A stretch of 64,000 nucleotides of DNA from an uncultured Clostridia bacterium (GCA_934167495.1 CAKPKP010000005.1:19451-83450), one strand, 5' to 3'. Positions 4,257 to 46,363 are shown, counted from the first letter of the stretch. The notes: generated by a model from the sequence alone, not told the origin. Translations and numbers: made by a program.

Positions 4257-4475
4257 TGCTAATCCATATTCCTTTCTACTTTCTATTTCTTCTATTTTAT
4301 ATCATAAATCAACATTTTTTTATAGTCTTTTATAAATGGTTTCAAAAATATTCTTTCTTACGCTTATGTTTCAATATTTTAAGTGTTGCATGATGCACAC
4401 TATTCTGCCTTAAGTCTCTTTTTTTAGTTCATTCAATCTAAAATATTCTATATTACATATTTTCCAGTATTTTTG

Positions 4476-6092: not shown

Positions 6093-6110
6093 AATTTTTC
6101 CTTTTTATTT

Positions 6111-7607
6111 TTATATACTTACATATTTTTGATTTTTATGATTTGGTTTTTCTGGTATAGTCATCTGCAACAATCCTTTTTCTAATAATGGTTTTAAATA
6201 TAGCATTGTGAAATTTCTTGTATGTTTATATTCCATATATTCCATTATCTCTTTTTTGCTATGCGGTTCATTACAAAATTCTAATATCTTTATTTCTTGC
6301 TCATTTAACTTAGTCGGTTCTTGGTCGGTTCTTGGTCGGTCTTTTATTTCATTTTCAAATCCCTCATGCATAAATATAGTTGTAATAAAATAATCTCTTG
6401 TATCATTTGTTTCAAATTCTGGTTCTTTTGAACCATTATTTTTTAAAGCTCTTTTAATTTTGGGAACTCCTGTATTTCTGCCCTCTGTTAATTTCAATTC
6501 TTTCAAAAATTCACCAATTCTACGATTTCTATATTTTCTTGCTATCATATTTTTATCTTCAATTGATTTTTCGCTTATTGAGCGATCTGGTCCGGGATAG
6601 CTTACAATATGAATTCTATCTTCCATTATTCTTACTTCCACAGGTTCTCTTACATCATATCCTCTGTGATATACTGCATTTACAAGGGCTTCTTCAATTG
6701 CTTGATAAGGATAATTGAAAAATCTTTCTGCTTCTGCTTGTCCTTCAATTTTTAGTATTCTTTCTTCAATTACTGTATTTCTAATAAAAGTTAATGCACT
6801 TTTTATCATACTATCTATTGGTCCTTTAAATATTCTCTCTGTCATATTATCACCTTCAGGACCATTTCTTAAATCTACTACTTCTATTTGTGAATATGGA
6901 AAGAATTTTTGTGGTTCATCATTAAAGAACATTAAACCAACATTTAGTGGTTTCATATATTCTGGTGTTCCATCAACAATTCTCATACTTTTGCATAAAT
7001 TCATAAAATCCATATTTTCAGATTCTTTTAATAAATCACTCTTAATTTCATATAAATAATTTTGAATTAATGGCAATTTCAAATCTCTAATTTCCGCTTC
7101 ATGATTCATCCTATCGTCAAAAGGAATTGTTCTTGCCATATCATATAATTCTTTTTGCTCTGTTTCTGTTGCTTTTACTGTATTGGACATTTTTCTTATA
7201 TAATATGAATATCCTCTGGAAAAATCTTTATCTAATGTTGTTGGACACTTGTATGGTCTTGTTTGTCCTCCAAAGCACCATACTACTAATATATTTTTCT
7301 CTTTATATTTTGCAACATCTACTATTGGTGTATATGATGGTTGTATTAATTTGCATTTTGCTAGTAATTCTTTTTGAATTTTATCTATTTCTGATAATTC
7401 CAGTCCTGTTATTGGAATTTTAGGTCTCCCGTTTTCTTCTTCGACACCAATTAATATATATCCTCCACCCCAATTATCTATATCATTTGCAAATGCACAA
7501 ATTGTATGTAATATTGGTTCTGGATTCCAATTTTTCTTTAATTCTAACCTTGCATTTTCGACAATGTTCTCATTTAGTATATTCTCTATACTTGTAGGTA
7601 ATTTCAT
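6111..7607 (-). CDS. AlbA_2 (Schlafen-like) plus HATPase_c_4 ATP-binding putative DNA-binding protein (COG2865-like)
   Basis: N-terminal ICAFANDIDNWGGGYILIGVEEENG (AlbA_2 signature). Later EEALVNAVYHRGYDVREPVEVRIMEDRIHIVSYPGP (HATPase_c_4 signature). C-terminal HTH-like tail. Confidence 0.65.
   Translation of the reverse strand: MKLPTSIENILNENIVENARLELKKNWNPEPILHTICAFANDIDNWGGGYILIGVEEENGRPKIPITGLELSEIDKIQKELLAKCKLIQPSYTPIVDVAKYKEKNILVVWCFGGQTRPYKCPTTLDKDFSRGYSYYIRKMSNTVKATETEQKELYDMARTIPFDDRMNHEAEIRDLKLPLIQNYLYEIKSDLLKESENMDFMNLCKSMRIVDGTPEYMKPLNVGLMFFNDEPQKFFPYSQIEVVDLRNGPEGDNMTERIFKGPIDSMIKSALTFIRNTVIEERILKIEGQAEAERFFNYPYQAIEEALVNAVYHRGYDVREPVEVRIMEDRIHIVSYPGPDRSISEKSIEDKNMIARKYRNRRIGEFLKELKLTEGRNTGVPKIKRALKNNGSKEPEFETNDTRDYFITTIFMHEGFENEIKDRPRTDQEPTKLNEQEIKILEFCNEPHSKKEIMEYMEYKHTRNFTMLYLKPLLEKGLLQMTIPEKPNHKNQKYVSI
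6313..6345. repeat. 11-nt tandem repeat (tcggttcttgg), about 2.6 copies, inside the 3' part of the 6111..7607 CDS
   Basis: Direct reading: tagtcggttcttggtcggttcttggtcggtctttt. Confidence 0.6.
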
Positions 7608-7688
7608 ACTTTCAACTTCCTCTCAATCATAAAATATTTTAAAACTTTACTTTTTCCTTTGATATTTTACTTTCAAATTTCTTTTGTT

Positions 7689-8561: not shown

Positions 8562-8883
8562 CTACTTAATAAAATTTTAATTTTATTAGTTTAATATTAT
8601 TTTCCAAAATTTTTTCAATATAATACTGTTACAAACTCACATGTATCGTTTCTCTCTAGTTACAGTGTTATTTTAATGTTGTTTATTGCCTGTAGCAGTA
8701 AATTTATCTTTGCTATTTCTTTTTTCATGCTACCATTATATTACTCTGTTTTTATAAAATCAATTCCCTTTTTATTCCCTGTTTTCTATTTCTTATATAA
8801 TTTAAAATGTGCTTTTAAAATTTAGTTAATGTTGTGCCATAGCACATGCATTTTAACCTTGACTTGATTTTATAAAGCACATA

Positions 8884-8925
8884 AAAAACCCCTTAGTAAT
8901 TATAATTACTAAAGGGTTTTACTAC
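8884..8925 (-). terminator. Bidirectional rho-independent terminator downstream of the kinase gene
   Basis: aaaaaa-CCCCTTAGTAATTAtaATTACTAAAGGG-tttt: perfect stem flanked by A-run and T-run. Confidence 0.6.
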
Positions 8926-8965
8926 AATTTAATCTAGCTTTTGGAATTACCATTAGCTAATTTAA

Positions 8966-10729
8966 TCAACCATAGTTATAGATATTGTTCTTATTGTAAA
9001 TTTTGAAACCACGCCCAGTAAACTGAAGTCTAGAGCTTTCATCAACAACACTACAATTGAATTCCTTTGCAGTATTTTTAACGATATTAGTTCCGATAAT
9101 CTTGCCATCTGCCGGATCATAAATAGTGTTGTTGTAAAAATCAATATTTCCCAGTGGCTGAGCATTATACATGATAACATCATCATCATATTCAATGCAA
9201 TTCTTGTTAAATACTATTGTACGATACTTACCATTGGAAAGCTGATATACAAACAACCATTTCTGAGTAACACGATCATACTTGATAGCATACTCATTAA
9301 TTCTTCCATTGTAATCTACCTTGAAAGTATAATCCGGAGTTGTAATTATTGCAGTCTTAGGATACATAGATACGATAAATACTTTGCCATCATCCGATGC
9401 TTCAAAGAACGGATTATACACCTGTCCCAAATAGTTCGGCATATTTCCACTCTTAGTGATAGAAAGTCTGACCAAATTATTGCCTTTATCCACATAATAC
9501 AGGTTTCTATCTTTTACAAGATAGTTAGACTTATGCATACGTTCGATAGTGGCTGTAACCTGATTATTCTCATCATACACCTGAATTGAATCATCATCAA
9601 TAACAAAGACAACCTTACCATCATTAGAGAAATCTACTCTCTTGCCTCTTTCAACTACAAACTTTCTTCCAGTTTCAAAATGAACAGCCTCATTGCTTCT
9701 GTTAAGATAATGCACATTGCTTAATACGTATGCACAATCCACACCAGCAAATATAACTGTAATCTGAGGTCCATTTGCAGTCTGGGTAACCTTTGCCACA
9801 ATAGGTGCTATCTTGACCTTCGCATTCTCGTTACAAAGTGAACACTCATTGAACTTTGAGTAATAATAAATATCGTGAATGCTACAATACTTCATATTTT
9901 TAAGAAGTTCCTGAAGATCTGCTGTGATGTCAATTTTCTTTCCCTGCTCAAAGATTTCAAGAAAATCCTTTTCAAGCTGAGGCGACATCCATTTCCAACT
10001 GCCGATAATTTTTGGAATTTTAATATCTCCCTTGTGCTTGCCCACAATTGATATTTTCCTTTTCATTCTCTCTATAGTAGAAAGGTTTTTATCAGGAAGA
10101 TATGTTCCACCGAAAGGATGGATTCTCGTAAGCATATTGAATGCAAGAATAGCAAAGTTGTAGTTTTCATTTTCCATAGAAAAATTAATACTGCCACTTG
10201 AAGAATAACTGTCGGGGCATGTGAAAAGTTCTGTATAAGCGTCGGGAGTATATTTTCCTTCAATCCCCCAACTATCAACATCAATAAAGTAATCACACTT
10301 TCCATTAATCTGGAAGTTATAATCACTTACATCTCCGACAATAATGCCTGTAGAGTGCAATTTGCCTAAATCTTTGCCTAAATCTGTAATTATCTGCAAT
10401 ACATCCTGATTTGACAAGTGTGCAGCAGTAAGATACTTTGGTTTAGTAAGCATATGCAAATCTTCGACATCAACAAGTTTTCTCATTGCATAACCAACAA
10501 ACTTGCCCTGAACTGTTACCACTTCTTCCGGACCAATCACATTTTTAGGCAACTGATCTTTAATTGAAATGAAATAGTTTACCTTTTCCTTTTTCCGTGC
10601 CAAATCTACATTAGGTTTAAAAACCTTGATAACTCTTTTCGAGTCATATTCGTATATAGTCGCTTCTCCGCCTTCTGCCAATTTGTTAAGGCTTTCAACA
10701 CGGCTTCGACTAGTAAAATTAATAGCCAT
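8966..10729 (-). CDS. Hanks-type Ser/Thr protein kinase with a roughly 400-aa C-terminal beta-propeller-like region (kinase of a TerY-P-like triad)
   Basis: Gly-loop LAEGGEATIYEY, beta3 Lys VIKVFK, catalytic loop LHSTGIIVGDVSDYNF (D-x4-N), DFG-like FIDVDSWG. The C-terminal half shows repetitive beta-strand-like segments. Confidence 0.65.
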   Translation of the reverse strand: MAINFTSRSRVESLNKLAEGGEATIYEYDSKRVIKVFKPNVDLARKKEKVNYFISIKDQLPKNVIGPEEVVTVQGKFVGYAMRKLVDVEDLHMLTKPKYLTAAHLSNQDVLQIITDLGKDLGKLHSTGIIVGDVSDYNFQINGKCDYFIDVDSWGIEGKYTPDAYTELFTCPDSYSSSGSINFSMENENYNFAILAFNMLTRIHPFGGTYLPDKNLSTIERMKRKISIVGKHKGDIKIPKIIGSWKWMSPQLEKDFLEIFEQGKKIDITADLQELLKNMKYCSIHDIYYYSKFNECSLCNENAKVKIAPIVAKVTQTANGPQITVIFAGVDCAYVLSNVHYLNRSNEAVHFETGRKFVVERGKRVDFSNDGKVVFVIDDDSIQVYDENNQVTATIERMHKSNYLVKDRNLYYVDKGNNLVRLSITKSGNMPNYLGQVYNPFFEASDDGKVFIVSMYPKTAIITTPDYTFKVDYNGRINEYAIKYDRVTQKWLFVYQLSNGKYRTIVFNKNCIEYDDDVIMYNAQPLGNIDFYNNTIYDPADGKIIGTNIVKNTAKEFNCSVVDESSRLQFTGRGFKIYNKNNIYNYG

Positions 10730-10741
10730 TTCAATACCTCC

Positions 10742-11668
10742 TTAGAAGCAGATTGAAATATCATCATGGAACATCTCATTTTTAAGATTATTCCTATTAA
10801 TGAGTTTTTCAATCTGAGGTCCTTTACCTTCATGTAAAAACTTCATCAATTTTGACTTTTCAAGCTCCAGAAGATTTTCCGAATATCTTAATCCATCGCT
10901 CGCAACTCCGACATTAGAATATTCGGATTTGCTAAAACGAGTTACCTTAAAGCTCACGCCTTCTTTGTACTCTTTGAGAGCGGATTTGTCTGTTATAAAA
11001 TTGTAGATGTAGTAGCAAGGATATTCACCATCATGGAGTTCATCAAAGAAGATTCCTTCCTCATTTTCCTTAATGATGTATCCATCACCACAGCTATATA
11101 CAACAAACTCATCCTCTAACTCAAAACATACCAGAATCGTAAAACAGTAATTCTGAAAAATGAAAGATGTATCACTACAGAGCTCCAGCATCTTCTCAAA
11201 AATGCTATTTACAATTTCGATAAAGTTTTCCTCACATATTGATTCACCTTTATCAAAGTATTCTTTTGATTTTCTGGCAAAAAGTTGCCCGAAAAGCCTT
11301 GTTCCAACCTCAGAGTGTTTACCAGAGCCACAACCATCTGTTACAATCTTCATATTAAGAAGATTAAATGCAAAATCATGATTATTCATGTTTGCAAATT
11401 TATGGTCCGAGCCCATTTTACAAACTCTGATAGTTGTCCTTTTAGGATGTTCCTTTGATGCAATTTCTTCAGATTCGACTGTTTCGAGTTCAGTTGCAGT
11501 TACACTCTCGGTTTCTACAACTACCTGGGTAGTATTCTTTGTAGACTCACTTTCTACCACAGTAGTTTCACTACTTACATTGGTTGTTTCTGTTATTTCC
11601 GAGACTTTTTCATCCATAGGTGGATTTTTGGCAGTCCGGAAATTTTCTAAAATTGATTTCATATACAT
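10742..11668 (-). CDS. PP2C-family protein phosphatase with a disordered N-terminus rich in Ser, Thr and Glu
   Basis: VTDGCGSG, VYSCGDGYII and VGVASDGL correspond to PP2C motifs. About 80 aa of low-complexity TETTNVSSETTVVESESTK... at the N-terminus. Only 12-nt gap to the kinase gene. Confidence 0.65.
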   Translation of the reverse strand: MYMKSILENFRTAKNPPMDEKVSEITETTNVSSETTVVESESTKNTTQVVVETESVTATELETVESEEIASKEHPKRTTIRVCKMGSDHKFANMNNHDFAFNLLNMKIVTDGCGSGKHSEVGTRLFGQLFARKSKEYFDKGESICEENFIEIVNSIFEKMLELCSDTSFIFQNYCFTILVCFELEDEFVVYSCGDGYIIKENEEGIFFDELHDGEYPCYYIYNFITDKSALKEYKEGVSFKVTRFSKSEYSNVGVASDGLRYSENLLELEKSKLMKFLHEGKGPQIEKLINRNNLKNEMFHDDISICF

Positions 11669-11677
11669 TACCTCCTA

Positions 11678-11712
11678 TAGAAAAAGAGGGATTGCACTGC
11701 AACCCCTCTCAG
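11678..11712 (-). terminator. Internal stem-loop plus T-run (attenuator or partial terminator) between the vWA and PP2C genes
   Basis: Minus-strand reading gagaggggttgcagtgcaatccctctttttc: stem AGAGGG(g)TTGCA / TGCAA(t)CCCTCT followed by TTTTT. Confidence 0.4.
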
Positions 11713-11751
11713 ACTTTAGTTATTGTTGTTAACTTGCAGATTGTCTACTTC

Positions 11752-12453
11752 TTATACGTCGAAGAATCCGCCGTCATCGTTTCCGCCTGCACCAGAACTT
11801 GCCTTCTTAGATGCTGAAATAGCACTCTTGGAAACAAGATCGATTACTCTACGGAGTTCACTCTCATCATTGCTTACTTCCTTAACATTGTTCTTCTTAA
11901 CACCGATAGAATCAGCAACTCCGAAAGCTCCCTGTCCAAAAGCGATGAAAGCTACCGTGATTTCCTTAGAAATCAAATCCTGAATAGCCTGACGTGCATC
12001 GCTTGCACGATACTGTGAACCATAATCTTCTCCATCCGACAGAATAATCAAACATGCACGGGCATTTGTACCATTGTTTTTCAACTGATCCATATAGTCC
12101 AGCATACGCTGACGTCTGTCGATGATAGCATCATACAATCTTGTACAACCGCCTGCAGAATAATCAGTATTGAAATCCTCAGGGGCTACATAGCCACCGG
12201 TCTCAATTGTAGATTCGAAAACAGTTTTGCTTACAAGCATTTCATCGGACTGTTTGGAATTTGAGATTGCTTCCTTGTAGTGCTCAAGGCACTCGCACAT
12301 TGCTCTCTCATACGGATCCATTGAGCCGCTGCCATCGATAAGAAAATCGACAAGCATAACGCTTGGGGATACGACGTCATCAACGTCCATGTTTGTTGCA
12401 TAGGTTTCGTCCAAACCGTCGATTGTAATGTTGTCCAAATATTCTTCGCTCAT
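11752..12453 (-). CDS. vWA (von Willebrand factor A) domain protein, TerY-like
   Basis: MIDAS motif LVDFLIDGSGSM (DxSxS) near the N-terminus. Length and order (vWA, PP2C, kinase) match the TerY-P triad. Confidence 0.7.
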   Translation of the reverse strand: MSEEYLDNITIDGLDETYATNMDVDDVVSPSVMLVDFLIDGSGSMDPYERAMCECLEHYKEAISNSKQSDEMLVSKTVFESTIETGGYVAPEDFNTDYSAGGCTRLYDAIIDRRQRMLDYMDQLKNNGTNARACLIILSDGEDYGSQYRASDARQAIQDLISKEITVAFIAFGQGAFGVADSIGVKKNNVKEVSNDESELRRVIDLVSKSAISASKKASSGAGGNDDGGFFDV

Positions 12454-12476
12454 AGTGTAATCCTCCTCATTATTGT

Positions 12477-13391
12477 TTAAAACTGAATATCTGTTGACTT
12501 GGCAAACTTGATGCCGTAGGAATTCTTAAAGTTGTCAAACGCTGCCACCGTATCTGCTTCAAAACCAGTAATTGGAGAAGTACAATCCTCCAAAATGGTA
12601 ATCTTCTGAGTAACCTCAGGACGGTTAGCAAAGTGTTCTGCGATCTGTTTAACTGATTCCATAAGGCAATGGCTTGCCGCTTCACCTACAACGTAGATCT
12701 CATCATACTTCTCGATAGCCGTGAGAACAGGCGTATTCAAGAAGTTTTTCTTGCTGTATTCCGGCTTAATGATACCATACATTTCACTGTACGGATCTTC
12801 ACCCTTAGGTATCATGTGGTCAACACACTTACGAGCTACAGAATGGAAATAAACCATCTTTGCGAATTCGTTTTCGAGTGAGTTGCCCTCTGTACCTTTG
12901 ATGCAGTGATAAGGCCAGATACAAAGCTGTTTCTTACCGGCTCCGACCTTTTCCAGTTCTTTCAGATACTGAATAGAATCTTTCGGGTTACCAATAACGG
13001 GACGCCAACGATTGTTCACAACATCATCGTAGGTAATAACTGTATAAGGGTCCGGATGATCACCTGCAGAATTTACCCACCAACAAGGATGGAAAATCTG
13101 GTGCGCGATATGAGTATCCAGACTGCACATAATACTTGAAATTCCCTCAATGTTGTTGTAAATGAAACGTGTCATACGTTCCACATCGCCGATAGATCCA
13201 GGAACTGCCAAAGCACCGCCTTCGATGAAATCCTTCTGAACATCAATGCACAAAAGCAAACGCCGAGGAGAATCATCAATTGATGCCGTAAACCGTTCCT
13301 GTTCTGCCATAGCAAAGATGGCGTTCATGTCTGTTGCAGAATGCTGACCAATCTTGGTAACATCTACAATCTGTTCGTAATTTGTCTTCAT
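12477..13391 (-). CDS. Isochorismatase-family cysteine hydrolase, nicotinamidase (PncA)-like, enlarged to 304 aa
   Basis: LLLCIDVQKDF (catalytic Asp), later Lys, and VVGEAASHCLMES (catalytic Cys). CSLDTHIAHQIFH matches the PncA metal-binding D-x-H-x3-H...H pattern. Confidence 0.6.
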   Translation of the reverse strand: MKTNYEQIVDVTKIGQHSATDMNAIFAMAEQERFTASIDDSPRRLLLCIDVQKDFIEGGALAVPGSIGDVERMTRFIYNNIEGISSIMCSLDTHIAHQIFHPCWWVNSAGDHPDPYTVITYDDVVNNRWRPVIGNPKDSIQYLKELEKVGAGKKQLCIWPYHCIKGTEGNSLENEFAKMVYFHSVARKCVDHMIPKGEDPYSEMYGIIKPEYSKKNFLNTPVLTAIEKYDEIYVVGEAASHCLMESVKQIAEHFANRPEVTQKITILEDCTSPITGFEADTVAAFDNFKNSYGIKFAKSTDIQF

Positions 13392-13538
13392 GTGAATACC
13401 TCCTTGAACTAAAGTTGATTAATAAATTTTTGCTAGTCAGTTGACTGCTGTTTGCCTCAAATCTCATTGTGTACCTCCTTAAATGTAAATGAGACAACAG
13501 TTTTGAATGCAAAGCAATCATTTATTGACATGTCAGTT

Positions 13539-13567
13539 ATTATACCATAGATAACATAAAAAGTAAA
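13539..13567 (-). promoter_or_regulatory. Candidate sigma-A promoter (TTTACT-17-TGgTATAAT) for the nicotinamidase-vWA-PP2C-kinase unit, with a roughly 150-nt leader
   Basis: Minus-strand reading tttactttttatgttatctatggTATAATaactg; extended -10 TGn. Confidence 0.35.
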
Positions 13568-13635
13568 TAGTTATGTTAATTTTTACAATTTTCTTTGATA
13601 TTTGCACTATTTGTTAAGTTTACATTTTAAATAAA

Positions 13636-13664
13636 GCTAGCCCACTTTAATAAAGTAGGCTAGC
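13636..13664 (-). terminator. Stem-loop terminator after the NAMPT-like gene
   Basis: gctagcccactttaataaagtaggctagc (GCTAGCC stems) followed on the minus strand by a T-rich stretch. Confidence 0.45.
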
Positions 13665-13696
13665 ACAAAATAAAATTATTTAGAAAATATTAACTC

Positions 13697-15256
13697 TTAG
13701 AACTTGCCGTTATAAACTCTCACGGATTCACTTGCAACTCTTTCTCTGATTTGATCGAAAGTCTGAGTGCGAACGAAATTTCCGTTAACAAAAACATCTT
13801 CAAGCTGGTTTCCTTCAACATTTTTGATAGTTTCAGGTGTGAGATTATCAATGAGCTTGTAATCTCCATCTTCAAAAACGACGGCAACCAAGCCTTTCTG
13901 AGACTTCTTGAATTTGTCCGAATCTGTCGCAGGGTCCTTATAAATTGCTCTAAATTCCCCATTAACAACTTCAGCTGTTCCCTTCAATGCAAAACCTAAG
14001 GTATCACGTGTCATATACTGGTATGTATAAGAACCAATACCTAAGCCAACACTTACAGTAACGAATTCTTTTTCCATCAAGACTTTGCAAATTGCCTCTG
14101 CTCTTTCAGGAGTAATAGAATCTCCGTAAACAGAACCAATATGAGGATCAATGTCAATGAATCCTTTTTCGTTTTTCGTACCGCCAAATATCTCATACAG
14201 ACGCTGAATCAAACCTTTATTGATTGTTTCAGCAAAGCCCTTTAAACGTTCATCCACATTTTCCTCAGTTGCATCTTTATCTCCGCAAATGATTTTAATG
14301 GGATCGCCGGAGTCAGGTCTGATATTGACCTTTCCATGACGTTTCATAATGGCCTCTTTAACCTCAGAATCTGTCAAAACATTGTCAACAAGATTCCACA
14401 GATTGTATGTATCGGATACGATTGTAACAGTTCCACTCGGATACACATCTGTAACCAGTCTTAAAATAGCATTCTTTTCATCACGCCCATAAGACTCCAT
14501 TACACTATGCTCTGTTGAAGGAGCATAAGCGATAACATTCGGATTAGCATCGTAATACGCCATAAGGTAATTTCTCGCAGGAATCGTTGCAGAACCACCG
14601 AAACTTAACAAATGGCCGGGTGTAGAACGATATGCAGCCTCAGGGCTACCCATGCCACGCATAGAAAAGTCTCCACCCTGATTGAAAACTCTTTTTTCCT
14701 GATTGCATCCAGTCAGTTTAGCATAATGAGTAAGAATTCTCTTATACTTATCTGCTATAGTTGCATCCGTCATTGGCTGCCAAATAAGGCAAGATACCGG
14801 TGTTTCCAAGTAACCAGTAAACCAGAAAAACTCAGGTAGAGTATTCTCGATGGTAAACATAGGAACTCCGATAGGTACAAATGTACCTTCTTTTAGAGCT
14901 TTCACTTTAATAGGTAAATAACCTAACTTGTGAAGTTTCTCAAAATGAGAATAGTCATAGTTCTTTACCATTTCAGGATTTGTAACTGAGAATGTACCGC
15001 TGAGGCTTTCTGTGATTTCCTCCATCACAACGTCAAGAGGTCTTTCAAAAAAGCCTTTCTGCCACTTCCAGTAAAGTGTTGAGAGTGCACCCTGCAGACC
15101 AAAGAACACAGCATGGCTTACGCCTTCAATCCGAGATTTTCTTGGTGTCCATGTTTCATAAGTCCATTCCAGACCATTAGGATACTGATCCTTATGACAG
15201 AATTTGTATCCATCTGTCAGTAAAGCGGGGTTTTCAATCATTTCGTTAAACATCAT
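13697..15256 (-). CDS. Nicotinamide phosphoribosyltransferase family protein (NAMPT/NadV homologue; possibly a Namat-like enzyme)
   Basis: Collinear matches to NAMPT blocks: [10 protein letters not shown] vs [33 protein letters not shown] vs [35 protein letters not shown] vs [23 protein letters not shown] vs LIIRPDSGNP. 519 aa. Confidence 0.85.
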   Translation of the reverse strand: [519 protein letters not shown]

Positions 15257-15276
15257 AAAGCATTCCTCCTTTTTAA

Positions 15277-16095
15277 TTACCTGTTTACATAGCCAATTAC
15301 ATCAACATCCATATACTTGATATTAGGATGTTCTTTACACATAATGGATGTACTTGTGTAAACTTTACTGATAGTTGAATCTTCGGTGAGAAGTTTTCCA
15401 TCGAAAATCGTTTCTTCGCAATGAGAAACAACCAAGTAAACTTCGCTTGCTCCCAAAGATTTCAGGATACTTCCTGCCCAAGCAAAAGTTCCTCCTTTAG
15501 AACAAAGGTCATCAATAATGATACACTTTGAACCAGGATTAACTGTTCCTTCCTTGAGACGCATATTCTCGATATTGCCGGTTATAGGATTACGCTTTTT
15601 CTCCATAATGCAGATATTAGCATAATCACTATCAGCATATCTTGCCGCAGCTCCTTTGTCAGGAAATACAACATGATCTTGCTCTGTAAAACCAATTTCC
15701 TTCTGAACTTCGGGTAACCAATCCTTTACAGGATAAATTGCAGTTGCTCTTTCCAGAAGTTCCATTGTTTTGCCAGAATGTGGCTCCATTACAACGATTT
15801 TTGCAAAATTAAGCCAATTGATGAAGTTGCAGACATATTGGAGAGTAAATAAATCTCCTTCAATCTTACGATCCATGCGACTGTATGGCATATACCATAT
15901 AAAAAGTGTACAGGGAACGTTGAACTCATCAATTCGTTTCTTTACAAACATCAAAGTAATGAGATCCGCATCGGTTGTGAACTTGAATTCGAGAACATTT
16001 TCTCCATCTATGATGGATTTCTCAAAATCTTTGACTTTGGTTTCGTTGTTAGGAAACCGCTCTGTAAGAAGTTTTGTACCATTGAGTATAAGCAT
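15277..16095 (-). CDS. Ribose-phosphate pyrophosphokinase (PRPP synthetase) homologue, short and divergent (Prs/Adps-like)
   Basis: YMPYSRMDRK vs canonical PYFGYARQDRR. IIIDDLCSKGGT vs the PRPP-binding loop VLVDDMIDTGGT. The canonical DLHA motif is replaced by EPHSG. 272 aa vs about 315 for canonical Prs. 20-nt gap to the NAMPT-like gene. Confidence 0.7.
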   Translation of the reverse strand: MLILNGTKLLTERFPNNETKVKDFEKSIIDGENVLEFKFTTDADLITLMFVKKRIDEFNVPCTLFIWYMPYSRMDRKIEGDLFTLQYVCNFINWLNFAKIVVMEPHSGKTMELLERATAIYPVKDWLPEVQKEIGFTEQDHVVFPDKGAAARYADSDYANICIMEKKRNPITGNIENMRLKEGTVNPGSKCIIIDDLCSKGGTFAWAGSILKSLGASEVYLVVSHCEETIFDGKLLTEDSTISKVYTSTSIMCKEHPNIKYMDVDVIGYVNR

Positions 16096-16182
16096 AAGCT
16101 GATACCTCCTAAAAATATTTTGTTTTAGTGTTTTGTAAGGAAATATTGTTTTCCATACTTAGTAACACAAAACTTATATAAA

Positions 16183-16211
16183 ATTATATCAAAATTTACA
16201 TAAATTTGCAA
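16183..16211 (-). promoter_or_regulatory. Near-consensus sigma-A promoter (TTGCAA-17-TATAAT) for the prs-like/NAMPT-like unit
   Basis: Minus-strand reading ttgcaaatttatgtaaattttgaTATAAT. Located about 90 nt upstream of the prs-like start. Confidence 0.5.
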
Positions 16212-16257
16212 TAGGCTAATTTCCACTCTAATTCAGTTATATTAAGCAGTTTAAAAA

Positions 16258-16286
16258 TTGACATAATATAAAAATGATGTTATAAT
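16258..16286 (+). promoter_or_regulatory. Consensus sigma-A promoter (TTGACA-17-TATAAT) for nadE, divergent from the prs-like promoter
   Basis: ttgacataatataaaaatgatgtTATAAT; about 105-nt 5' UTR ending in an AAGGAGG RBS. Confidence 0.55.
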
Positions 16287-16394
16287 ATGGCACAAGTGTT
16301 TTTATATAGCTATCAGCAATTATAGATAGCCTAAAAAACAAAGCCAAAAATATGTTGTTACTATTAAATCACAATTTTAAGGAGGTTTTTCATT

Positions 16395-18305
16395 ATGGTA
16401 AACTATGGTTTTGTAAAGTGTGCTATTGCAACTTGTAATAGTGGACTTTCTAATCCGGTAAATGCAACACAAAAAATTAAGGATTTAGTAATCACGGCAG
16501 AATCTCGGGGTGTCCAGGTATTAGTATTTCCTGAACTTTCGATGACCGGTTATACTTGTCAAGACCTTTTCGGATATTCGCAACTGTTGGAAACAACTAT
16601 GGAATGCTTACAGGATCTTGTATCCTTTTCAGCTTCTTATAATGTTCTCTTTGTTGTCGGAGCTCCTATAGATGTCTTTGATACTTTGTATAATTGTGCA
16701 GTTGTTATTCAGGGTGGAAAGATTCATGGAATCGTTCCAAAGCAGTACCTTCCTAACTACGGGGAGTTTTACGAAAAACGGTGGTTTACAACCTATACAG
16801 ATTATTCCATTACATCTGTTAATATGTTTGGTGAAGAAGTACCTTTTGGTAACTTGATTTTTTCTTCATCTGTAGGTTACAGATTAGGAATAGAAATCTG
16901 CGAAGATCTTTGGTCTGTTATTCCGCCAAGTTCTTATCTGGCATTAGCCGGTGCAAATATTATCGCAAACTTATCTTCAAGTAACGAGTTGGTTGGCAAA
17001 GATGATTACCGTAGAGAGCTGATTAGAACTCAAAGCTCAAGAACCATTTCAGCATACCTCTATACTTCTACAGGTTTTTCCGAATCAACAAGTGATTTGG
17101 TATTCGGAGGTAGTGGTTATGCTTTTGAGAATGGTAAAGTACTAACACAACTTAAACGGTATCAGATGGAAGATCAGATGGAAATTTTTGATGTTGATAT
17201 TGAATCTTTAACAAACGAAAGAATCGCTAATAAAACCTTTAGCGATAGTAAGAGAAATCTGAACTGTACTCATCGTGAGATTAAGATTTCACAATCAATA
17301 ACATCGACATCTCTTTCTCGAAGTGTTAATGCACATCCATTTGTGCCTACTTTAGATAATGACTCTAGGAGTAGAGTCTGCAAAGAGATTATTTCTATCC
17401 AGTCAACAGGCTTAGCAAGAAGGTTATCTGCAATCGACAACACAAAAGTAACTATCGGCATTTCTGGAGGATTAGATTCTACATTAGCATTACTTGTATG
17501 CTATGATGCTTTTAAAAAGCTGAATCTTGATTTTTCTGGAATAATTGGAATCACGATGCCTGGCTTTGGCACAACTGATCGCACATACAATAACGCACTT
17601 AGATTGTGTAAAGAACTTGGTATTACTTTACATGAAATTCCTATAAGGGATGCGTGTATGCAACATTTCAAAGATATTGGGCACAATCCTTCTGTTCATG
17701 ACATTACATATGAGAATGTTCAGGCAAGGGAACGAACCAAGATTCTTATGAATATGGCAAATAAACATAACGGCATTTTGGTTGGAACAGGTGATTTATC
17801 CGAATTGGTATTAGGTTGGTGTACCTATAATGGTGATCACATGAGTATGTATGGAGTAAACTGCTCTATACCTAAAACTCTTGTTAAATATCTCATTGAA
17901 TGGTATGCAATCGAAGCCGGCAAAGAAAAACCTGAACTTAAGGAAACTCTGTTGGATATTATAAATACTCCAATTAGTCCAGAGTTGCTTCCAACTGATG
18001 GTAAACAGGTTGTTCAGAAAACTGAAAGCACGGTAGGTCCTTATGAAGTCATAGACTTCTTTATCTACAATTTTTTGAGAAAGAGATTTTCTCGTAACAA
18101 GATTCTGTATCTTGCAGTTAACGCTTTTGAAGGGGTATATACAATGGAGGAACTTTCACGTTACTATGATGGATTTATTAAAAGGTTTTTCCATAATCAA
18201 TTCAAGAGAAATTGTATCCCGGACGGTCCTAAAGTTGGAACAGTAAGTGTTTCGCCGAGAGGTGATTTGAGACTGCCCTCTGATGCAGATTCAAGCAATT
18301 GGTAA
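16395..18305 (+). CDS. nadE: Glutamine-dependent NAD+ synthetase (N-terminal nitrilase/CN-hydrolase domain plus C-terminal NAD synthetase domain)
   Basis: N-terminal VFPELSMTGY and EICEDLW (CN hydrolase Glu and Cys). C-terminal GISGGLDSTLAL (SGGxDS PP-loop). Overall collinear with two-domain NadE. Confidence 0.85.
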   Translation: MVNYGFVKCAIATCNSGLSNPVNATQKIKDLVITAESRGVQVLVFPELSMTGYTCQDLFGYSQLLETTMECLQDLVSFSASYNVLFVVGAPIDVFDTLYNCAVVIQGGKIHGIVPKQYLPNYGEFYEKRWFTTYTDYSITSVNMFGEEVPFGNLIFSSSVGYRLGIEICEDLWSVIPPSSYLALAGANIIANLSSSNELVGKDDYRRELIRTQSSRTISAYLYTSTGFSESTSDLVFGGSGYAFENGKVLTQLKRYQMEDQMEIFDVDIESLTNERIANKTFSDSKRNLNCTHREIKISQSITSTSLSRSVNAHPFVPTLDNDSRSRVCKEIISIQSTGLARRLSAIDNTKVTIGISGGLDSTLALLVCYDAFKKLNLDFSGIIGITMPGFGTTDRTYNNALRLCKELGITLHEIPIRDACMQHFKDIGHNPSVHDITYENVQARERTKILMNMANKHNGILVGTGDLSELVLGWCTYNGDHMSMYGVNCSIPKTLVKYLIEWYAIEAGKEKPELKETLLDIINTPISPELLPTDGKQVVQKTESTVGPYEVIDFFIYNFLRKRFSRNKILYLAVNAFEGVYTMEELSRYYDGFIKRFFHNQFKRNCIPDGPKVGTVSVSPRGDLRLPSDADSSNW

Positions 18306-18343
18306 AATAATCATTATAGTGATAACATATTTTTTGGTTTGAG

Positions 18344-18375
18344 AGATGAGTGGGTGCATACCTACTCATCTTTTA
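18344..18375 (+). terminator. Rho-independent terminator of nadE
   Basis: AGATGAGTgggtgcataccTACTCATCT followed by TTTTATT. Confidence 0.6.
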
Positions 18376-18415
18376 TTAAAACTACAATAAATATAAAAAT
18401 CAAGCATTTTTTATA

Positions 18416-19970: not shown

Positions 19971-21020
19971 TTACTCATCCTCATTTGTTAAGCTATTGTC
20001 TTCTAAACTATCGTCTTTTTTTACATAATTTTCTAAATTTAATTCCTTCTTAAATTCTTCTTCTGTTGGCAAATATAATTTATACTTTGAAGCAAATATT
20101 TGCTTATTATCTTCTGGCAAAGTATATTTTACAACTTGTTCACTTTTATCTGCACAAAGTACAATTCCAATTGGTGGATTGTCTCCCTCATTCATCATTT
20201 CTCTTGTATAATAATTTACATACATTTGCATTTGTCCTATATCTTGATGTGTTAAATCTCCTAGTTTTAAATCTATTATTACAAAGCATTTTAATATATA
20301 GTTGTAGAATACTAAATCTATAAAGAAATGTCTACCATCAAATGTTATTTTTTGTTGTCTTGATACAAAAGAAAATCCTCTTCCTAATTCTAATAAGAAT
20401 TTTTGCAAATGATCTATTATTGCTTGTTCTAAATCTTTTTCATAGAAACTTGTTTTTCCTTCTAATCCTAAAAATTCTAATACATAAGGATCTCTTATTA
20501 TATTCTTAGGTTCTACTTTTTCTGGTAATCCTATTTCTTTTTCTACCGCTTCTTTATCTTGACTCGCTAATAATCTTTCATAGTAGAATGTTCCTATTTG
20601 TCTTTCTAATTGCCTTACACTCCATCCAGATTTCACACATTCTTTTGCATAAAAACTTCTTGTTTTTTCATTTTCTACTCTCATTAACAATCTGTAATGT
20701 GACCAACTTAAATCGTCACACAGTGTGTGACGATTTGGAAAAGCACGATAAAATTGTCTCATATACTTTAAATTTGTAACTGTAAAACCTTTTCCAAATT
20801 CATTAGTTAATTGTTCTGATAAATATTCTAACAGTTTCTTACCATATTCTGCTCTATCATTTTTGCCACAAGCCTTATGTATTTCTTGACCTATCTCCCA
20901 GTATGCTTGTACCATTGCAGTATTAACGGCAGTATATACTTTAGCCTGTGCAGTTAGTACACTATTTCTAATTATTTTGTATGATTCTTCTGGTTGGATT
21001 GTTATTTGGTTATCTTCCAT
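19971..21020 (-). CDS. DUF1016/YhcG-like PD-(D/E)xK nuclease-family protein
   Basis: Recognisable YhcG-type N-terminal region (YMRQFYRAFPN...) and a C-terminal region with IDLVFYN...IIDLKLG, a restriction-endonuclease-like core. Confidence 0.55.
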   Translation of the reverse strand: MEDNQITIQPEESYKIIRNSVLTAQAKVYTAVNTAMVQAYWEIGQEIHKACGKNDRAEYGKKLLEYLSEQLTNEFGKGFTVTNLKYMRQFYRAFPNRHTLCDDLSWSHYRLLMRVENEKTRSFYAKECVKSGWSVRQLERQIGTFYYERLLASQDKEAVEKEIGLPEKVEPKNIIRDPYVLEFLGLEGKTSFYEKDLEQAIIDHLQKFLLELGRGFSFVSRQQKITFDGRHFFIDLVFYNYILKCFVIIDLKLGDLTHQDIGQMQMYVNYYTREMMNEGDNPPIGIVLCADKSEQVVKYTLPEDNKQIFASKYKLYLPTEEEFKKELNLENYVKKDDSLEDNSLTNEDE

Positions 21021-24413: not shown

Positions 24414-24417
24414 CATA

Positions 24418-24763
24418 TTTTGAGTAAATCTGTAAGCCGGGTTCTGTCTTGGACAATCATTTATCTAGAATATATATTTCTATATATTTCAAGCCACCTA
24501 TTCAGAAGACGACGAGCAGTCTTAACCTTCTACTCCGGTGTTGCTCCAGATGGGGTTTACACAGCTAGCATATCACTATGCTACTGGTGAGCTCTTACCT
24601 CACCTTTTCACCTTAACCATTAAATTAATGGCTGTTATTTTCTGTTGCACTTTCCTTAAGGTCACCCTCACTGGGAGTTACCCAGCACCATTGCTCTATG
24701 GAGCCCGGACTTTCCTCATATACAGTTTTTCAACTTTGTATCCGCGATCATCCAACTTACTCT
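24418..24763 (-). ncRNA. rnpB: RNase P RNA (bacterial type B, Firmicute-like)
   Basis: A GC-rich patch in an AT-rich genome. The minus strand reads ...UAUGAGGAAAGUCCGGGCUCCAUAGAGCAAUGGUGCUGGGUAACUCCCAGUGAGGGUGACCUUAAGGAAAGUGCAACAGAAAAUAACAGCC... with the universal GAGGAAAGUCC (P4) block. The 5' and 3' ends can pair as P1 (GAGUAAG / CUUAC...UUACUC). Own promoter and terminator. Ends are approximate (about 10 nt). Confidence 0.85.
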
Positions 24764-46287: not shown

Positions 46288-46363
46288 TGGCTGGGGTACT
46301 GTGATTCGAACACAGGAAATGTCGGAGTCAGAGTCCGATGCCTTACCGCTTGGCGATACCCCA
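46288..46363 (-). tRNA. tRNA-Gln (anticodon CUG), CCA encoded
   Basis: Minus-strand reading UGGGGUAUCGCCAAGCGGUAAGGCAUCGGACUCUGACUCCGACAUUUCCUGUGUUCGAAUCACAGUACCCCAGCCA. Cloverleaf with U1-A72, anticodon loop CUCUGAC, T-loop UUCGAAU. Nearly identical 5' half to E. coli tRNA-Gln. Confidence 0.85.

What the first reader, a model, noticed from the sequence alone, without database searches (positions are those of the whole stretch)
8930..18380. Roughly 9.4-kb higher-GC foreign block combining NAD+ metabolism genes with a vWA/PP2C/kinase signalling triad
GC content in this stretch is visibly far higher than the genome background of about 27%. Long runs such as gccgtcatcgtttccgcctgcaccagaacttgcc are GC-rich, and the GC level drops sharply at both flanks; each flank carries a terminator. 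The block encodes, in two to three transcription units with near-consensus promoters, a divergent Prs homologue, a NAMPT-family enzyme, an enlarged PncA-like nicotinamidase, a TerY-like vWA protein, a PP2C phosphatase, a Hanks kinase with a beta-propeller-like tail, and a divergently transcribed two-domain NadE. No NMN/NaMN adenylyltransferase is present. Co-localisation of a dedicated NAD supply module with a phospho-signalling triad on an acquired segment is not a standard housekeeping arrangement. It suggests either an NAD-replenishing or anti-defence island, or an NAD-linked conflict or stress system regulated by phosphorylation.
Basis: partly seen in the sequence, partly recalled or inferred. 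Interest (0 to 1): 0.85.

Follow-up and report, generated by a model that had tools for sequence, protein, structure and literature searches.

The report
Phage-derived NAD-rebuilding island with phospho-switch
A 9.4-kb foreign insert in an uncultured gut Clostridia chromosome joins the phage NAD+-rebuilding pathway NARP1 and an NAD synthetase to a four-gene nicotinamidase/vWA/phosphatase/kinase cassette; that cassette is common in phages, and I found no description of it in the papers I could search.

Summary
Window 8930-18380 has GC 0.370 against 0.265 elsewhere. Its seven genes have the seven highest third-codon-position GC (GC3) values of 47 ORFs, and both flanks carry terminators.

The "Prs + NAMPT" pair is NARP1 (Adps + Namat), which makes NAD+ from ADP-ribose and nicotinamide. 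That explains the missing NMN adenylyltransferase.

The block is composite, with two modules:
- **Cassette (8.96-13.55 kb):** nicotinamidase-like enzyme, TerY-like vWA, PP2C, and a kinase with zinc ribbon and beta domain.
- **NARP1 plus NadE (13.56-18.38 kb).**

The cassette occurs in at least 23 related gut MAG species. Its GC3 is foreign in the ten species checked gene by gene, and block GC exceeds the flanks in nearly all loci. Its flanking genes mostly differ between species.

The slot upstream of the cassette varies. It holds NARP1+NadE, a new ADP-ribosyltransferase, PncB-NadE-NadD, or a short NadE.

The same four-gene cassette is widespread in phages. IMG/VR gave 114 hits, and 73 of 76 loci found through the kinase carry the nicotinamidase.

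Best reading: a phage-derived, phosphorylation-controlled NAD+ salvage and reconstitution island. A role as a defence system is the main rival. I found no published description of the cassette. It is a new variant of known kinds.

The parts
8883..8920 (-). Intrinsic terminator after the kinase gene; right edge of the block.
   Evidence: 16-bp stem, TATA loop and T-run read directly in the sequence. Cross-species DNA homology starts at 8884-8964.
8966..10729 (-). Protein kinase (587 aa): kinase domain, Cys/His zinc ribbon, then an all-beta C-terminal domain.
   Evidence: No Pfam hit; weak Bud32/RIO-like and PD-T4-6 hits. The AF2 model (pLDDT 70) matches kinase folds at E 1e-7 to 1e-10; the top hit is LRRK2 kinase+WD40. 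K35, D133, N138, D150, D152, C282, C296 and C299 are conserved in phage and bacterial copies. dN/dS is 0.05-0.09.
10742..11668 (-). PP2C phosphatase (308 aa) with a hypervariable S/T/E-rich N-terminal tail.
   Evidence: PF13672 at 1.6e-13. D98, D111, D195, D258, D302 and D303 are conserved in 17 phage and bacterial copies. The tail region (about 11426-11635) is the only part of the block without cross-species DNA homology.
11684..11710 (-). Hairpin with T-run between the vWA and PP2C genes; a possible internal attenuator.
   Evidence: 12-bp stem with 6 GC pairs. Function not tested.
11752..12453 (-). TerY-like vWA protein (233 aa) with an intact MIDAS site.
   Evidence: PF00092 at 1.1e-5 and a weak vWA-TerF-like hit. 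D40-x-S42-x-S44, T104 and D140 are invariant in 18 phage and bacterial copies, as are tail serines S208, S210 and S215.
12477..13391 (-). Enlarged nicotinamidase-like (PncA-like) enzyme, 304 aa.
   Evidence: Best PDB matches are nicotinamidases Pnc1 and PncA. D50, K196 and C242 (catalytic) and D92, H94 and H162 (metal site) are invariant, including in E. coli PncA. Scores are below the Pfam and NCBIfam cut-offs. The family has 1434 clusters.
13411..13567 (-). Promoter and conserved ~110-nt 5' leader of the cassette operon, with a unique palindrome AGTCAACTGACT at 13435-13446.
   Evidence: -35/-10 at 13567-13539. The leader is conserved in 13 species, with compensatory changes in two stems. The palindrome occurs once in 64 kb. 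No Rfam match.
13636..13664 (-). Terminator of the Adps-Namat unit; junction between the two modules.
   Evidence: 13-bp stem with T-run. Homology to cassette-only species ends at 13549-13559.
13697..15256 (-). Namat (nicotinamide ADP-ribose transferase), 519 aa; second enzyme of NARP1.
   Evidence: phrog_448 at 1.5e-159. Best PDB hits are 9W5X/9W5W, the SPbetaL1 Namat, at 496 bits against about 170 bits for human NAMPT. 50.9% identity to SPbetaL1. The selectivity-clamp motif GSYTYQYMTRD fits GSX-phi-X-phi-X-phi-TRD.
15277..16095 (-). Adps (ADP-ribose pyrophosphokinase, Prs-like), 272 aa; first enzyme of NARP1.
   Evidence: phrog_619 at 2.8e-60, whereas TIGR01251 scores 97.5 against a cut-off of 113. 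43% identity to phage FADO Adps. Residues equivalent to R87, H121, D161, K185, D212 and D213 are kept. The PP loop DDLCSKGGTF resembles FADO's DDLSSYGGTF. The C-terminus is short.
16183..16286 (.). Divergent promoter region between Adps and NadE.
   Evidence: 12/12 consensus match with TG at 16258-16286 (+) and 10/12 with TG at 16211-16183 (-). Conserved across species. One strain has an IS inserted here.
16395..18305 (+). Glutamine-dependent NAD+ synthetase NadE, 636 aa.
   Evidence: NF002730 scores 825 bits against a cut-off of 473; CN_hydrolase plus NAD_synthase domains. GC3 is 0.28.
18344..18377 (+). Intrinsic terminator after NadE; left edge of the block.
   Evidence: 12-bp stem with one mismatch, GCAT loop and T-run. 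Cross-species homology ends at 18374-18378 and strain-level homology at 18387.

Best explanation
The block is a composite island, ultimately of phage origin, that keeps the cell's NAD+ pool supplied from the breakdown products of NAD+.

**Module A (13.56-18.38 kb)** is the NARP1 pathway plus NadE.
- Adps pyrophosphorylates ADP-ribose to ADPR-PP.
- Namat joins ADPR-PP to nicotinamide to give NAD+ directly, so no NMN/NaMN adenylyltransferase is needed.
- NadE amidates deamido-NAD, the last step of the nicotinate route.

**Module B (8.96-13.55 kb)** is a four-gene operon.
- A nicotinamidase-like enzyme, predicted to convert nicotinamide to nicotinate, opens the deamidated (Preiss-Handler) route.
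- It is co-transcribed with a TerY-P-type triad: a MIDAS vWA protein, a PP2C phosphatase, and a Ser/Thr kinase with a zinc ribbon and a beta-rich sensor domain.
- I infer that the triad is a reversible phosphorylation switch. It would set the activity or partnering of the nicotinamidase, and so decide whether nicotinamide is kept (for Namat) or deamidated.

**Shown:** gene identities, conserved catalytic residues, two-module structure, phage distribution, purifying selection.

**Inferred:** enzyme substrates, the target of the phospho-switch, and the physiological trigger. The trigger could be NAD+ loss caused by NADase defences, toxins or ADP-ribosyltransferases.
For: **NARP1 identity.** Supported. 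Bacterial NARP1 copies outside prophages are already on record, and one was shown to be active.

**Nicotinamidase.** The catalytic triad and metal site are invariant.

**Triad.** MIDAS, PP2C and kinase catalytic residues and the zinc ribbon are conserved across 17-18 phage and bacterial copies. This matches the published TerY-P definition.

**Recurrent link to NAD synthesis genes.**
- Gln-NadE with NARP1 occurs in six species.
- PncB-NadE-NadD lies next to the cassette in L024, L025 and L035.
- A short NadE lies directly upstream in L026 and L027.
- NadE or NadD lies near the cassette in about 12 phage loci.

**Phage distribution.**
- 114 IMG/VR hits were found. 58 of the 83 viral loci analysed (79 IMG/VR plus 4 GenBank phage records) have the same gene order.
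- 73 of 76 loci retrieved through the kinase carry the nicotinamidase.
- The phage context is genuine: terminase, portal, DnaB, and three assemblies of about 164 kb.
- Bacterial kinases nest inside the phage diversity in a neighbour-joining tree.

**Selection and stability.** All seven genes show dN/dS of 0.03-0.18. Every contig of the species that carries the identical neighbouring MFS gene also has the block.
Against: - Namat and the nicotinamidase compete for the same substrate, so the two modules look partly antagonistic unless they are regulated.
- PncB and NadD, which are needed between the nicotinamidase and NadE, are not in the 64-kb window. I could not check the rest of the genome.
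- No phage locus holds NARP1 within 8-10 kb of the cassette.
- In sister species the slot next to the cassette holds an NAD+-consuming ADP-ribosyltransferase rather than an NAD+-building enzyme. That fits a conflict system at least as well.
- The neighbourhood looks like a defence island. It holds YhcG/PDC-S02 and a Schlafen-like ATPase, and a strain variant has SIR2+Fic.
- The persistent high GC3 despite saturated dS is unexplained.
- No enzyme activity was measured.
Confidence: 0.5

Rival explanations
1. Module B is a TerY-P-type conflict or defence system whose effector is the nicotinamidase. On sensing infection, the kinase/phosphatase/vWA switch turns on nicotinamide removal. This would starve phage NARP1 and NARP2 (both need nicotinamide) and relieve product inhibition of NADase or ADP-ribosyltransferase effectors. 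Phage copies would serve in competition between phages. NARP1 and NadE in the window would then be the host's own recovery or immunity arm.
For: - TerY-P-like triads are validated stand-alone anti-phage systems (Gao 2020, as cited).
- In at least 9 related loci an R-S-ExE ADP-ribosyltransferase sits directly upstream in the same operon. Its model has pLDDT 92.6, and its top 33 PDB fold matches are all ART toxins or effectors.
- The cassette is flanked by large serine recombinases in L030, L009 and L016.
- The neighbourhood is variable and defence-like.
Against: - No PADLOC TerY-P model matches the vWA or PP2C, and the kinase only weakly hits PD-T4-6.
- In the Gao systems the kinase is fused to an OB fold, not to a zinc ribbon plus beta domain.
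- The cassette is far more common in phage genomes, including large, apparently lytic ones, among replication and RNA-repair genes.
- It repeatedly sits beside NAD-building genes.
- NARP1 in the same island consumes the nicotinamide that this system would remove.
Confidence: 0.22
2. The four metabolic genes form one closed 'deamidated NARP1' pathway. The steps would be: nicotinamide to nicotinate (PncA-like); ADPR to ADPR-PP (Adps); nicotinate plus ADPR-PP to deamido-NAD (a Namat variant); and deamido-NAD to NAD+ (NadE).
For: - It uses every enzyme in the block and needs neither PncB nor NadD, which are absent from the window.
- NadE is retained in all six NARP1-type islands, although the PncB-NadD partners seen in sister islands are gone.
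Against: - Namat keeps the Asp equivalent to human NAMPT D219 (GDFSMRG). From my own recollection of the NAMPT literature, this residue selects nicotinamide over nicotinate.
- The rest of the pocket is close to the characterised SPbetaL1 Namat.
- PncB and NadD may simply lie elsewhere in the genome.
Confidence: 0.1
3. It is an ordinary, vertically inherited housekeeping NAD salvage operon of this bacterial lineage, and the GC difference reflects protein composition or expression level.
For: - The block is found in all sampled strains of the species, and the same order recurs in five other species.
- Selection is strongly purifying.
- L017 and L028 share flanking genes on both sides; L014 shares the downstream flank.
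Against: - The shift is largest at third codon positions: 0.28-0.43 against 0.12.
- Flanking genes differ in most species.
- The cassette at 91-93% DNA identity sits in unrelated contexts next to recombinases.
- Homologues are abundant in phages and the bacterial clade nests within them.
- The Adps and Namat clades are predominantly phage-borne.
Confidence: 0.05

Closest known systems
[quoted passage not shown] 2024; Lan et al. 2026; Liu et al. 2026)
   Same: - Adjacent Prs-like and NAMPT-like genes in the order Adps-Namat.
- The Namat selectivity-clamp motif is present.
- Adps acceptor and catalytic residues are kept, and the C-terminus is short.
- The closest relatives are Bacillus-phage enzymes (SPbetaL1, FADO).
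- Bacterial copies outside prophages are already reported, and one was shown to be active.
   Different: - It is chromosomal, in a low-GC gut Clostridia lineage.
- It is flanked by a divergent NadE and by a nicotinamidase/TerY-P operon, a combination not mentioned in any of the NARP papers read.
- The PP loop follows the FADO type rather than the ICP1 type (S instead of D216, GGT instead of AAS).
TerY-P triad (TerY-like vWA + PP2C + Ser/Thr kinase-zinc ribbon; Anantharaman et al. 2012; Gao et al. 2020; CoCoNuT systems)
   Same: - Same three domains in the same order.
- The MIDAS motif DxSxS..T..D is intact.
- The kinase is followed by a Cys/His zinc ribbon.
- It behaves as a mobile cassette that attaches to other systems.
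   Different: - No match to PADLOC's defence models for the vWA or PP2C, only weak PD-T4-6 hits for the kinase, and no Pfam kinase hit.
- The kinase has an extra ~270-aa all-beta domain after the zinc ribbon instead of an OB fold.
- The obligate partner is a nicotinamidase-like enzyme, and the family is mainly phage-borne.
PncA nicotinamidase and the Preiss-Handler salvage genes (pncA-pncB-nadD-nadE), including NAD gene clusters of gut jumbo phages (Microbiome 2024)
   Same: - Catalytic D-K-C triad and D-H-H metal site.
- Sister islands carry PncB-NadE-NadD next to it.
- Jumbo phages are known to cluster pncB, nadD and nadE, and to carry pncA.
   Different: - About 90 aa larger than PncA, with an N-terminal extension and a ~45-aa insert before WPxHC.
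- Below the family cut-offs of Pfam and NCBIfam.
- Always co-operonic with a signalling triad.
NARP2 (NAMPT + NMNAT) and NARP3 (PnuC + NadR)
   Same: These are phage-encoded routes that rebuild NAD+ to overcome NADase defences.
   Different: The block has no NMNAT, NadR or PnuC. The Namat motif places the NAMPT-like enzyme in NARP1, not NARP2.

Membership tests
NARP1 | Prs-like protein belongs to the Adps clade rather than to canonical Prs. | tested here: met
   phrog_619 at 2.8e-60; the Prs model TIGR01251 scores 97.5, below its cut-off of 113; 40-43% identity to Bacillus-phage Adps including FADO; at most 62 bits to any solved Prs. No formal phylogeny was made.
NARP1 | A Namat gene lies next to Adps. 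| tested here: met
   The genes are 20 bp apart on the same strand, in the order Adps-Namat. The same arrangement is seen in FADO and ICP1.
NARP1 | Namat selectivity-clamp helix motif GSX-phi-X-phi-X-phi-TRD, with aromatic residues at the X positions. | tested here: met
   The window has GSYTYQYMTRD, SPbetaL1 has GSFTYQYNTRD, and human NAMPT has GSGGALLQKLTRD.
NARP1 | Namat selectivity-clamp loop with a stacking Arg, Lys or Tyr. | tested here: inconclusive
   The loop TPRKSRIEG aligns with SPbetaL1 TPRTSRVED. The exact stacking position was not mapped on a structure.
NARP1 | Adps acceptor and catalytic residues and a remodelled PP loop. | tested here: met
   Residues equivalent to R87, H121, D161, K185, D212 and D213, and F221, are kept. 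The PP loop matches the FADO type, and D216 is replaced by S as in FADO.
NARP1 | Makes NAD+ from ADPR, ATP and nicotinamide. | not testable with these tools
   This needs an enzyme assay.
TerY-P triad | TerY-like vWA domain with a MIDAS motif. | tested here: met
   D40-G-S42-G-S44, T104 and D140 are invariant in 18 copies. PF00092 scores above its cut-off; the vWA-TerF-like model scores below its cut-off.
TerY-P triad | PP2C phosphatase with metal-binding aspartates. | tested here: met
   PF13672 scores 51 bits against a cut-off of 24. D98, D111, D195, D258, D302 and D303 are conserved.
TerY-P triad | Ser/Thr kinase fused at its C-terminus to a zinc ribbon. | tested here: met
   The kinase fold is supported by Foldseek (E down to 1.5e-10). 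K35, D133, N138 and D150/D152 are kept. C282, H285, C296 and C299 follow the kinase domain. Zinc binding itself was not tested.
TerY-P defence system (Gao 2020 / PADLOC) | Match to the defence-system protein models, and a kinase-OB fusion. | tested here: not met
   There is no PADLOC hit for the vWA or PP2C at E<=0.01. The kinase hits only PD-T4-6 at E 0.0025. The C-terminal domain is a ~270-aa beta domain, not an OB fold.
Nicotinamidase (PncA) | Catalytic Asp-Lys-Cys triad and Asp/His/His metal site. | tested here: met
The best PDB hits are nicotinamidases.
Nicotinamidase (PncA) | Reaches the curated family thresholds. | tested here: not met
   Pfam Isochorismatase scores 16.7 against 27. NCBIfam PRK11609 scores 39 against 174. 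It is therefore a divergent subfamily, and its substrate is unproven.
Glutamine-dependent NAD+ synthetase (NadE) | CN-hydrolase plus NAD synthase domains, scoring above the equivalog cut-off. | tested here: met
   NF002730 scores 825 bits against a cut-off of 473.
Horizontally acquired island | Deviant codon composition, sharp boundaries and non-syntenic flanks. | tested here: met
   No att repeats and no integrase were found in the window.
Prophage | Phage structural or replication genes, or an integrase, in or next to the block. | tested here: not met
   Neighbours are GNAT_C, MFS, YhcG, NUDIX, a tRNA methyltransferase and GPD. None is a phage structural gene.

The most novel reading that the evidence does not exclude
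The nicotinamidase-vWA-PP2C-kinase cassette is an undescribed, widespread phage module in which NAD+ precursor metabolism is placed under a Ser/Thr phosphorylation switch. That would make it a fourth kind of phage NAD+ counter-measure, or alternatively an anti-NARP weapon. A lineage of gut Clostridia captured it and plugs it interchangeably into NARP1+NadE, the Preiss-Handler enzymes, or a new ADP-ribosyltransferase. Together these build a regulated NAD+ consumption and regeneration cycle.
Probability: 0.3. Interest if true: 0.85.

Novelty: new variant of a known kind. Interest (0 to 1): 0.68.

Why it matters
NAD+ depletion and reconstitution is currently one of the most active fronts in phage-bacterium conflict research. 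Three points make this finding useful there.

- **Bacterial NARP1.** Both NARP1 papers read here say the role of bacterial NARP1 is unknown. This locus gives a concrete, conserved genomic context for it: NadE plus a phospho-regulated nicotinamidase. It also offers natural swap variants (ART, or PncB-NadD) that suggest what NARP1 is exchanged for.
- **A new phage cassette.** The four-gene cassette appears in more than 100 phage contigs, from 45-kb siphovirus-like genomes to 500-kb huge phages, and I found no description of it in the papers I could search. It would be the first case I know of where signalling proteins are hard-wired to an NAD salvage enzyme.
- **Testability.** All components are small soluble enzymes, and the NADase defence assays already exist.

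Tried and rejected
- **PADLOC.** The scan found nothing for the vWA or PP2C and only marginal kinase hits, so I did not file the triad under the Gao defence system.
- **Rfam.** Searches at the gathering threshold and at a permissive E-value found no riboswitch in the block's intergenic regions.
- **att sites.** The longest direct repeats between the block ends or module ends are 9-10 bp, no better than shuffles.
- **Strains lacking the block.** None was found among 22 contigs carrying the identical neighbouring MFS gene.
- **NARP3.** It is PnuC+NadR and unrelated.
- **The c5 protein upstream of the cassette in sister species.** It had no Pfam, PHROG or PDB sequence match. Only structure prediction revealed the ART fold. 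It is absent from IMG/VR.
- **Adps/Namat in phage loci.** tblastn on 150+ phage loci found none within 8-10 kb of the cassette.
- **NadE origin.** NadE's best 'phage' hits are unverified virome fragments at 45-47% identity, which I judged uninformative about origin.

Full report
**1. Observation**

A 1-kb and a 200-bp composition profile show GC of 0.33-0.45 from about 9.0 to 18.3 kb, against 0.21-0.30 on both sides. GC dips to 0.22-0.25 only in the two internal intergenic regions.
- The block 8930-18380 has GC 0.370; the rest of the window has 0.265.
- 500-bp windows give 0.372+-0.036 inside and 0.266+-0.032 outside (Mann-Whitney p=4e-11).
- The difference lies chiefly at third codon positions. 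The seven block genes have GC3 0.28-0.43 and are the top seven of 47 long ORFs. The other 40 average 0.116+-0.029, with a maximum of 0.184.
- Terminators stand at both edges: 8883-8920 on the minus strand and 18344-18377 on the plus strand.
- A strong terminator at 13636-13664 follows the NAMPT-like gene.
- Promoter-like sites, one a perfect consensus, precede NadE, the Prs-like gene and the PncA-like gene.

**2. Gene identities**

*Prs-like and NAMPT-like genes.* The Prs-like protein matches the phage family phrog_619 (2.8e-60) far better than bacterial Prs models, where it falls below the cut-off. The NAMPT-like protein matches phrog_448 (1.5e-159). These two families are the enzymes of NARP1. 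Adps makes ADPR-pyrophosphate from ADP-ribose and ATP, and Namat joins it to nicotinamide to give NAD+.

*Namat.* Its best solved relatives are 9W5X and 9W5W, the SPbetaL1 Namat structures, at 496 bits against about 170 bits for mammalian NAMPT. It carries GSYTYQYMTRD, which fits the published Namat-specific clamp motif. Human NAMPT has GSGGALLQKLTRD at that place.

*Adps.* It aligns with the structurally characterised ICP1 Adps and with the FADO Adps. FADO is a phage whose NARP1 operon was deleted experimentally in the Osterman et al. study. The acceptor and catalytic residues are kept, the C-terminus is short, and the PP loop is of the FADO type.

NARP1 needs no adenylyltransferase.

*NadE.* It is a bona fide glutamine-dependent NAD synthetase, scoring 825 bits against a cut-off of 473.

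*PncA-like protein.* It falls below the family thresholds. However, it keeps the Asp-Lys-Cys triad and the Asp/His/His metal site of nicotinamidases, invariant across bacterial and phage relatives and E. coli PncA.

*vWA, PP2C and kinase.*
- The vWA protein has an intact MIDAS site.
- The PP2C keeps its metal-binding aspartates.
- The 587-aa protein has no Pfam hit but folds as a protein kinase with K35, D133, N138 and D150/D152.
- The kinase domain is followed by a Cys/His zinc ribbon and a ~270-aa all-beta domain.

That architecture is the published definition of a TerY-P triad.

**3. The block is composite**

The host is an uncultured low-GC 'Clostridia bacterium' lineage from animal and human guts. 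tblastn of the window proteins on 23 species-level loci gave the following.
- PncA-like, vWA, PP2C and kinase are always together, down to 41-52% identity.
- Adps, Namat and NadE accompany them in only five other species.
- Two species whose cassette is 91-93% identical in DNA to the window's lack NARP1 and NadE altogether.
- DNA homology to those two species stops at 13549-13559, inside the intergenic region after Namat.
- Homology to the NARP1-type species covers exactly 8884-8964 to 18374-18378.

The slot upstream of the cassette is variable. It holds one of the following:
- NARP1 with a divergent Gln-NadE;
- a ~300-aa protein of no known family (c5);
- c5 preceded by a divergent PncB-NadE-NadD set;
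- a short ammonia-type NadE.

L017 and L028 share flanking genes on both sides, yet one carries NARP1+NadE and the other c5.

c5 was predicted with high confidence (pLDDT 92.6). Its top 33 PDB fold matches are all R-S-E mono-ADP-ribosyltransferase toxins or effectors (Vis, ExoS, C3, iota/CDT, Tre1, HopU1). R136, S156-x-T158 and E206 are invariant, and E204 is nearly so.

Every variant of the slot is therefore about NAD+. It is either consumed, with release of nicotinamide, or rebuilt.

**4. Foreign origin, and from where**
- Block GC exceeds the flanks in nearly all loci. GC3, computed gene by gene for ten loci, is raised in each, reaching 0.62.
- Flanking genes are mostly unrelated between species.
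- Large serine recombinases flank the cassette in three species.
- No att repeats or integrase are present in the window.
- Within the species the block is stable. All 22 contigs with the identical neighbouring MFS gene have it, and one has an IS between NadE and Adps.
- All seven genes are under strong purifying selection, with dN/dS of 0.03-0.18.

The decisive clue came from phage collections.
- The only GenBank phage records matching the kinase are the same four that match the PncA-like protein. Three are huge phages and one is a faecal virome contig.
- LR756500.1 and MT837596.1 carry the full order PncA-like-vWA-PP2C-kinase. The two other huge phages carry PncA-like and kinase more dispersed, with vWA detected in one.
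- An IMG/VR scan seeded with the PncA-like family found 114 viral hits. 58 of the 83 viral loci analysed (79 IMG/VR plus the 4 GenBank records) have the identical order, and most others are permuted or partial.
- A scan seeded with the kinase found 76 loci, 73 of them with the PncA-like gene upstream. Two of the other three are cut by contig ends.
- The contigs are real phages. One has terminase, SPP1 portal and Mu-F genes around the cassette. Another has RNA ligase, Thg1 and DnaB. Three independent assemblies are about 164 kb.
- Phage GC ranges from 0.24 to 0.56, and there the cassette matches the phage's own composition.
- NadE or NadD lies next to the cassette in about a dozen phage loci.
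- In a rough neighbour-joining tree the bacterial kinases form one clade nested inside phage diversity.

I conclude that the cassette is a phage module captured by this bacterial lineage. NARP1, which is also chiefly a phage pathway, was joined to it secondarily.

**5. How it most likely works**

*Shown by sequence:* two routes that start from nicotinamide lie side by side, and both end in NAD+.
- Route 1 is NARP1: ADPR + ATP to ADPR-PP, then ADPR-PP + nicotinamide to NAD+.
- Route 2 starts with the nicotinamidase (nicotinamide to nicotinate) and ends with NadE (deamido-NAD to NAD+).
- In route 2 the middle steps, PncB and NadD, are encoded in the island in sister species but not in this window.

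*Inferred:* the vWA/PP2C/kinase triad is a reversible phospho-switch acting on the nicotinamidase or its partners. The supporting observations are these:
- The triad is co-operonic with the nicotinamidase wherever either occurs.
- All of its catalytic residues are conserved.
- Candidate acceptor sites exist. These are the three conserved serines in the vWA tail and a hypervariable S/T/E-rich tail on the PP2C.

I put 0.5 on the reading that the island's job is regulated NAD+ salvage and reconstitution after NAD+ cleavage.

*Rivals.*
- The main rival (0.22) is that the cassette is a TerY-P-type conflict system. Its effector would remove nicotinamide to drive ART or NADase reactions and to starve phage NARP pathways. 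The ART variant and the defence-island-like setting favour it. The dominance of phage carriers and the company of NAD-building genes count against it.
- A neat third option (0.1) is a closed deamidated pathway in which Namat accepts nicotinate. The conserved Asp equivalent to NAMPT D219 argues against it (the role of D219 is from my own knowledge of the NAMPT literature).
- An ordinary vertical operon (0.05) is contradicted by GC3, synteny and the phage distribution.

**6. Comparison with what is known**
- NARP1, bacterial NARP1 homologues, TerY-P triads, nicotinamidases, and NAD gene clusters in gut jumbo phages are all published.
- Neither full-text searches nor the seven NAD-conflict papers I searched link a nicotinamidase to a TerY-P triad. 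None describes NARP1 next to such a cassette.
- The library is incomplete, so this is absence of evidence only.
- I classify the finding as a new variant of known kinds. It is a recognised pathway (NARP1) and a recognised signalling triad (TerY-P) in an undescribed, conserved and largely phage-borne combination with a divergent nicotinamidase.

**7. Unexplained**
- GC3 stays far above the host level although synonymous sites between species copies are saturated. This suggests continued exchange through a higher-GC reservoir, or biased conversion.
- It is unclear why NadE is retained without PncB and NadD.
- A conserved ~110-nt leader before the PncA-like gene carries a palindrome that is unique in the window, and shows compensatory changes in two stems. 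It has no Rfam match and is absent from phage copies.

Noticed in passing
window 13411-13519 (- strand); palindrome at 13435-13446: A conserved ~110-nt 5' leader lies upstream of the PncA-like gene. It contains the palindrome AGTCAACTGACT, which occurs only once in the 64-kb window. Two stems show compensatory changes across species. There is no Rfam match, and the leader is absent upstream of phage copies. In L025 and L035 the palindrome sits upstream of the ART gene instead. It may be an operator or a cis-regulatory RNA.
   Followed up: partly
L035 5978-6922; also L013, L016, L019, L024, L025, L028: A ~300-aa protein family with no Pfam, PHROG or PDB sequence match occupies the slot that NARP1 fills in the window. 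AlphaFold (pLDDT 92.6) plus Foldseek show an R-S-ExE mono-ADP-ribosyltransferase toxin fold. The 98 family members come only from this MAG lineage, and none is in IMG/VR.
   Followed up: yes
window 4380-7688: A two-gene indel is present in the window but absent in strains L002 and L006. It encodes a Schlafen/AlbA_2-HATPase_c_4-Fic-like_C protein (498 aa) and an FtsK/SpoIIIE-like ATPase (538 aa). It may be a small mobile or defence element.
   Followed up: partly
L002 1-1847 (strain variant of the region left of NadE, window >18387): One strain carries a 985-aa SIR2_2 protein plus a Fic protein next to NadE, where the window has MFS + YhcG. The SIR2_2 domain suggests a possible NAD+-cleaving defence protein. 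If so, it would sit directly beside the NAD+-rebuilding island.
   Followed up: no
window 19971-21020 (- strand): A YhcG/DUF1016 PD-(D/E)xK nuclease matches the PADLOC candidate defence family PDC-S02 (E 6e-148).
   Followed up: no
L125 13452-14647 (equivalent to window ~16100-16390): In one strain an IS (DDE_Tnp_1 transposase) is inserted in the divergent promoter region between NadE and Adps.
   Followed up: no
window ~11426-11635 (PP2C N-terminus) and 11752-11830 (vWA C-terminus): The PP2C begins with an ~80-aa S/T/E-rich low-complexity tail. It varies in length between species and is the only part of the block without cross-species DNA homology. The vWA tail has three serines conserved in phage and bacterial copies. 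Both are candidate phospho-acceptor regions.
   Followed up: partly
block genes in the ten related loci checked gene by gene (WIN, L009, L016, L017, L023, L026, L028, L030, L031, L035): GC3 of the block stays at 0.2-0.6 in hosts with GC3 of about 0.1, even though dS between species copies is saturated. In phages the cassette matches the phage's own GC. The lack of amelioration is unexplained.
   Followed up: partly
window 24417-24763 (-) and 46291-46363 (-): An RNase P RNA (class A, 278 bits) and a tRNA. Together with the flanking housekeeping genes, these show that the window is chromosomal.
   Followed up: no
L042 8487-9938; L083 6096-7655; L039 2255-3706: In many phages the cassette is preceded by a DUF2828/DUF7788 vWA protein. 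In the 100-165-kb phages it is also preceded by RNA ligase and Thg1-like genes, so it sits in an RNA-repair or counter-defence neighbourhood.
   Followed up: no
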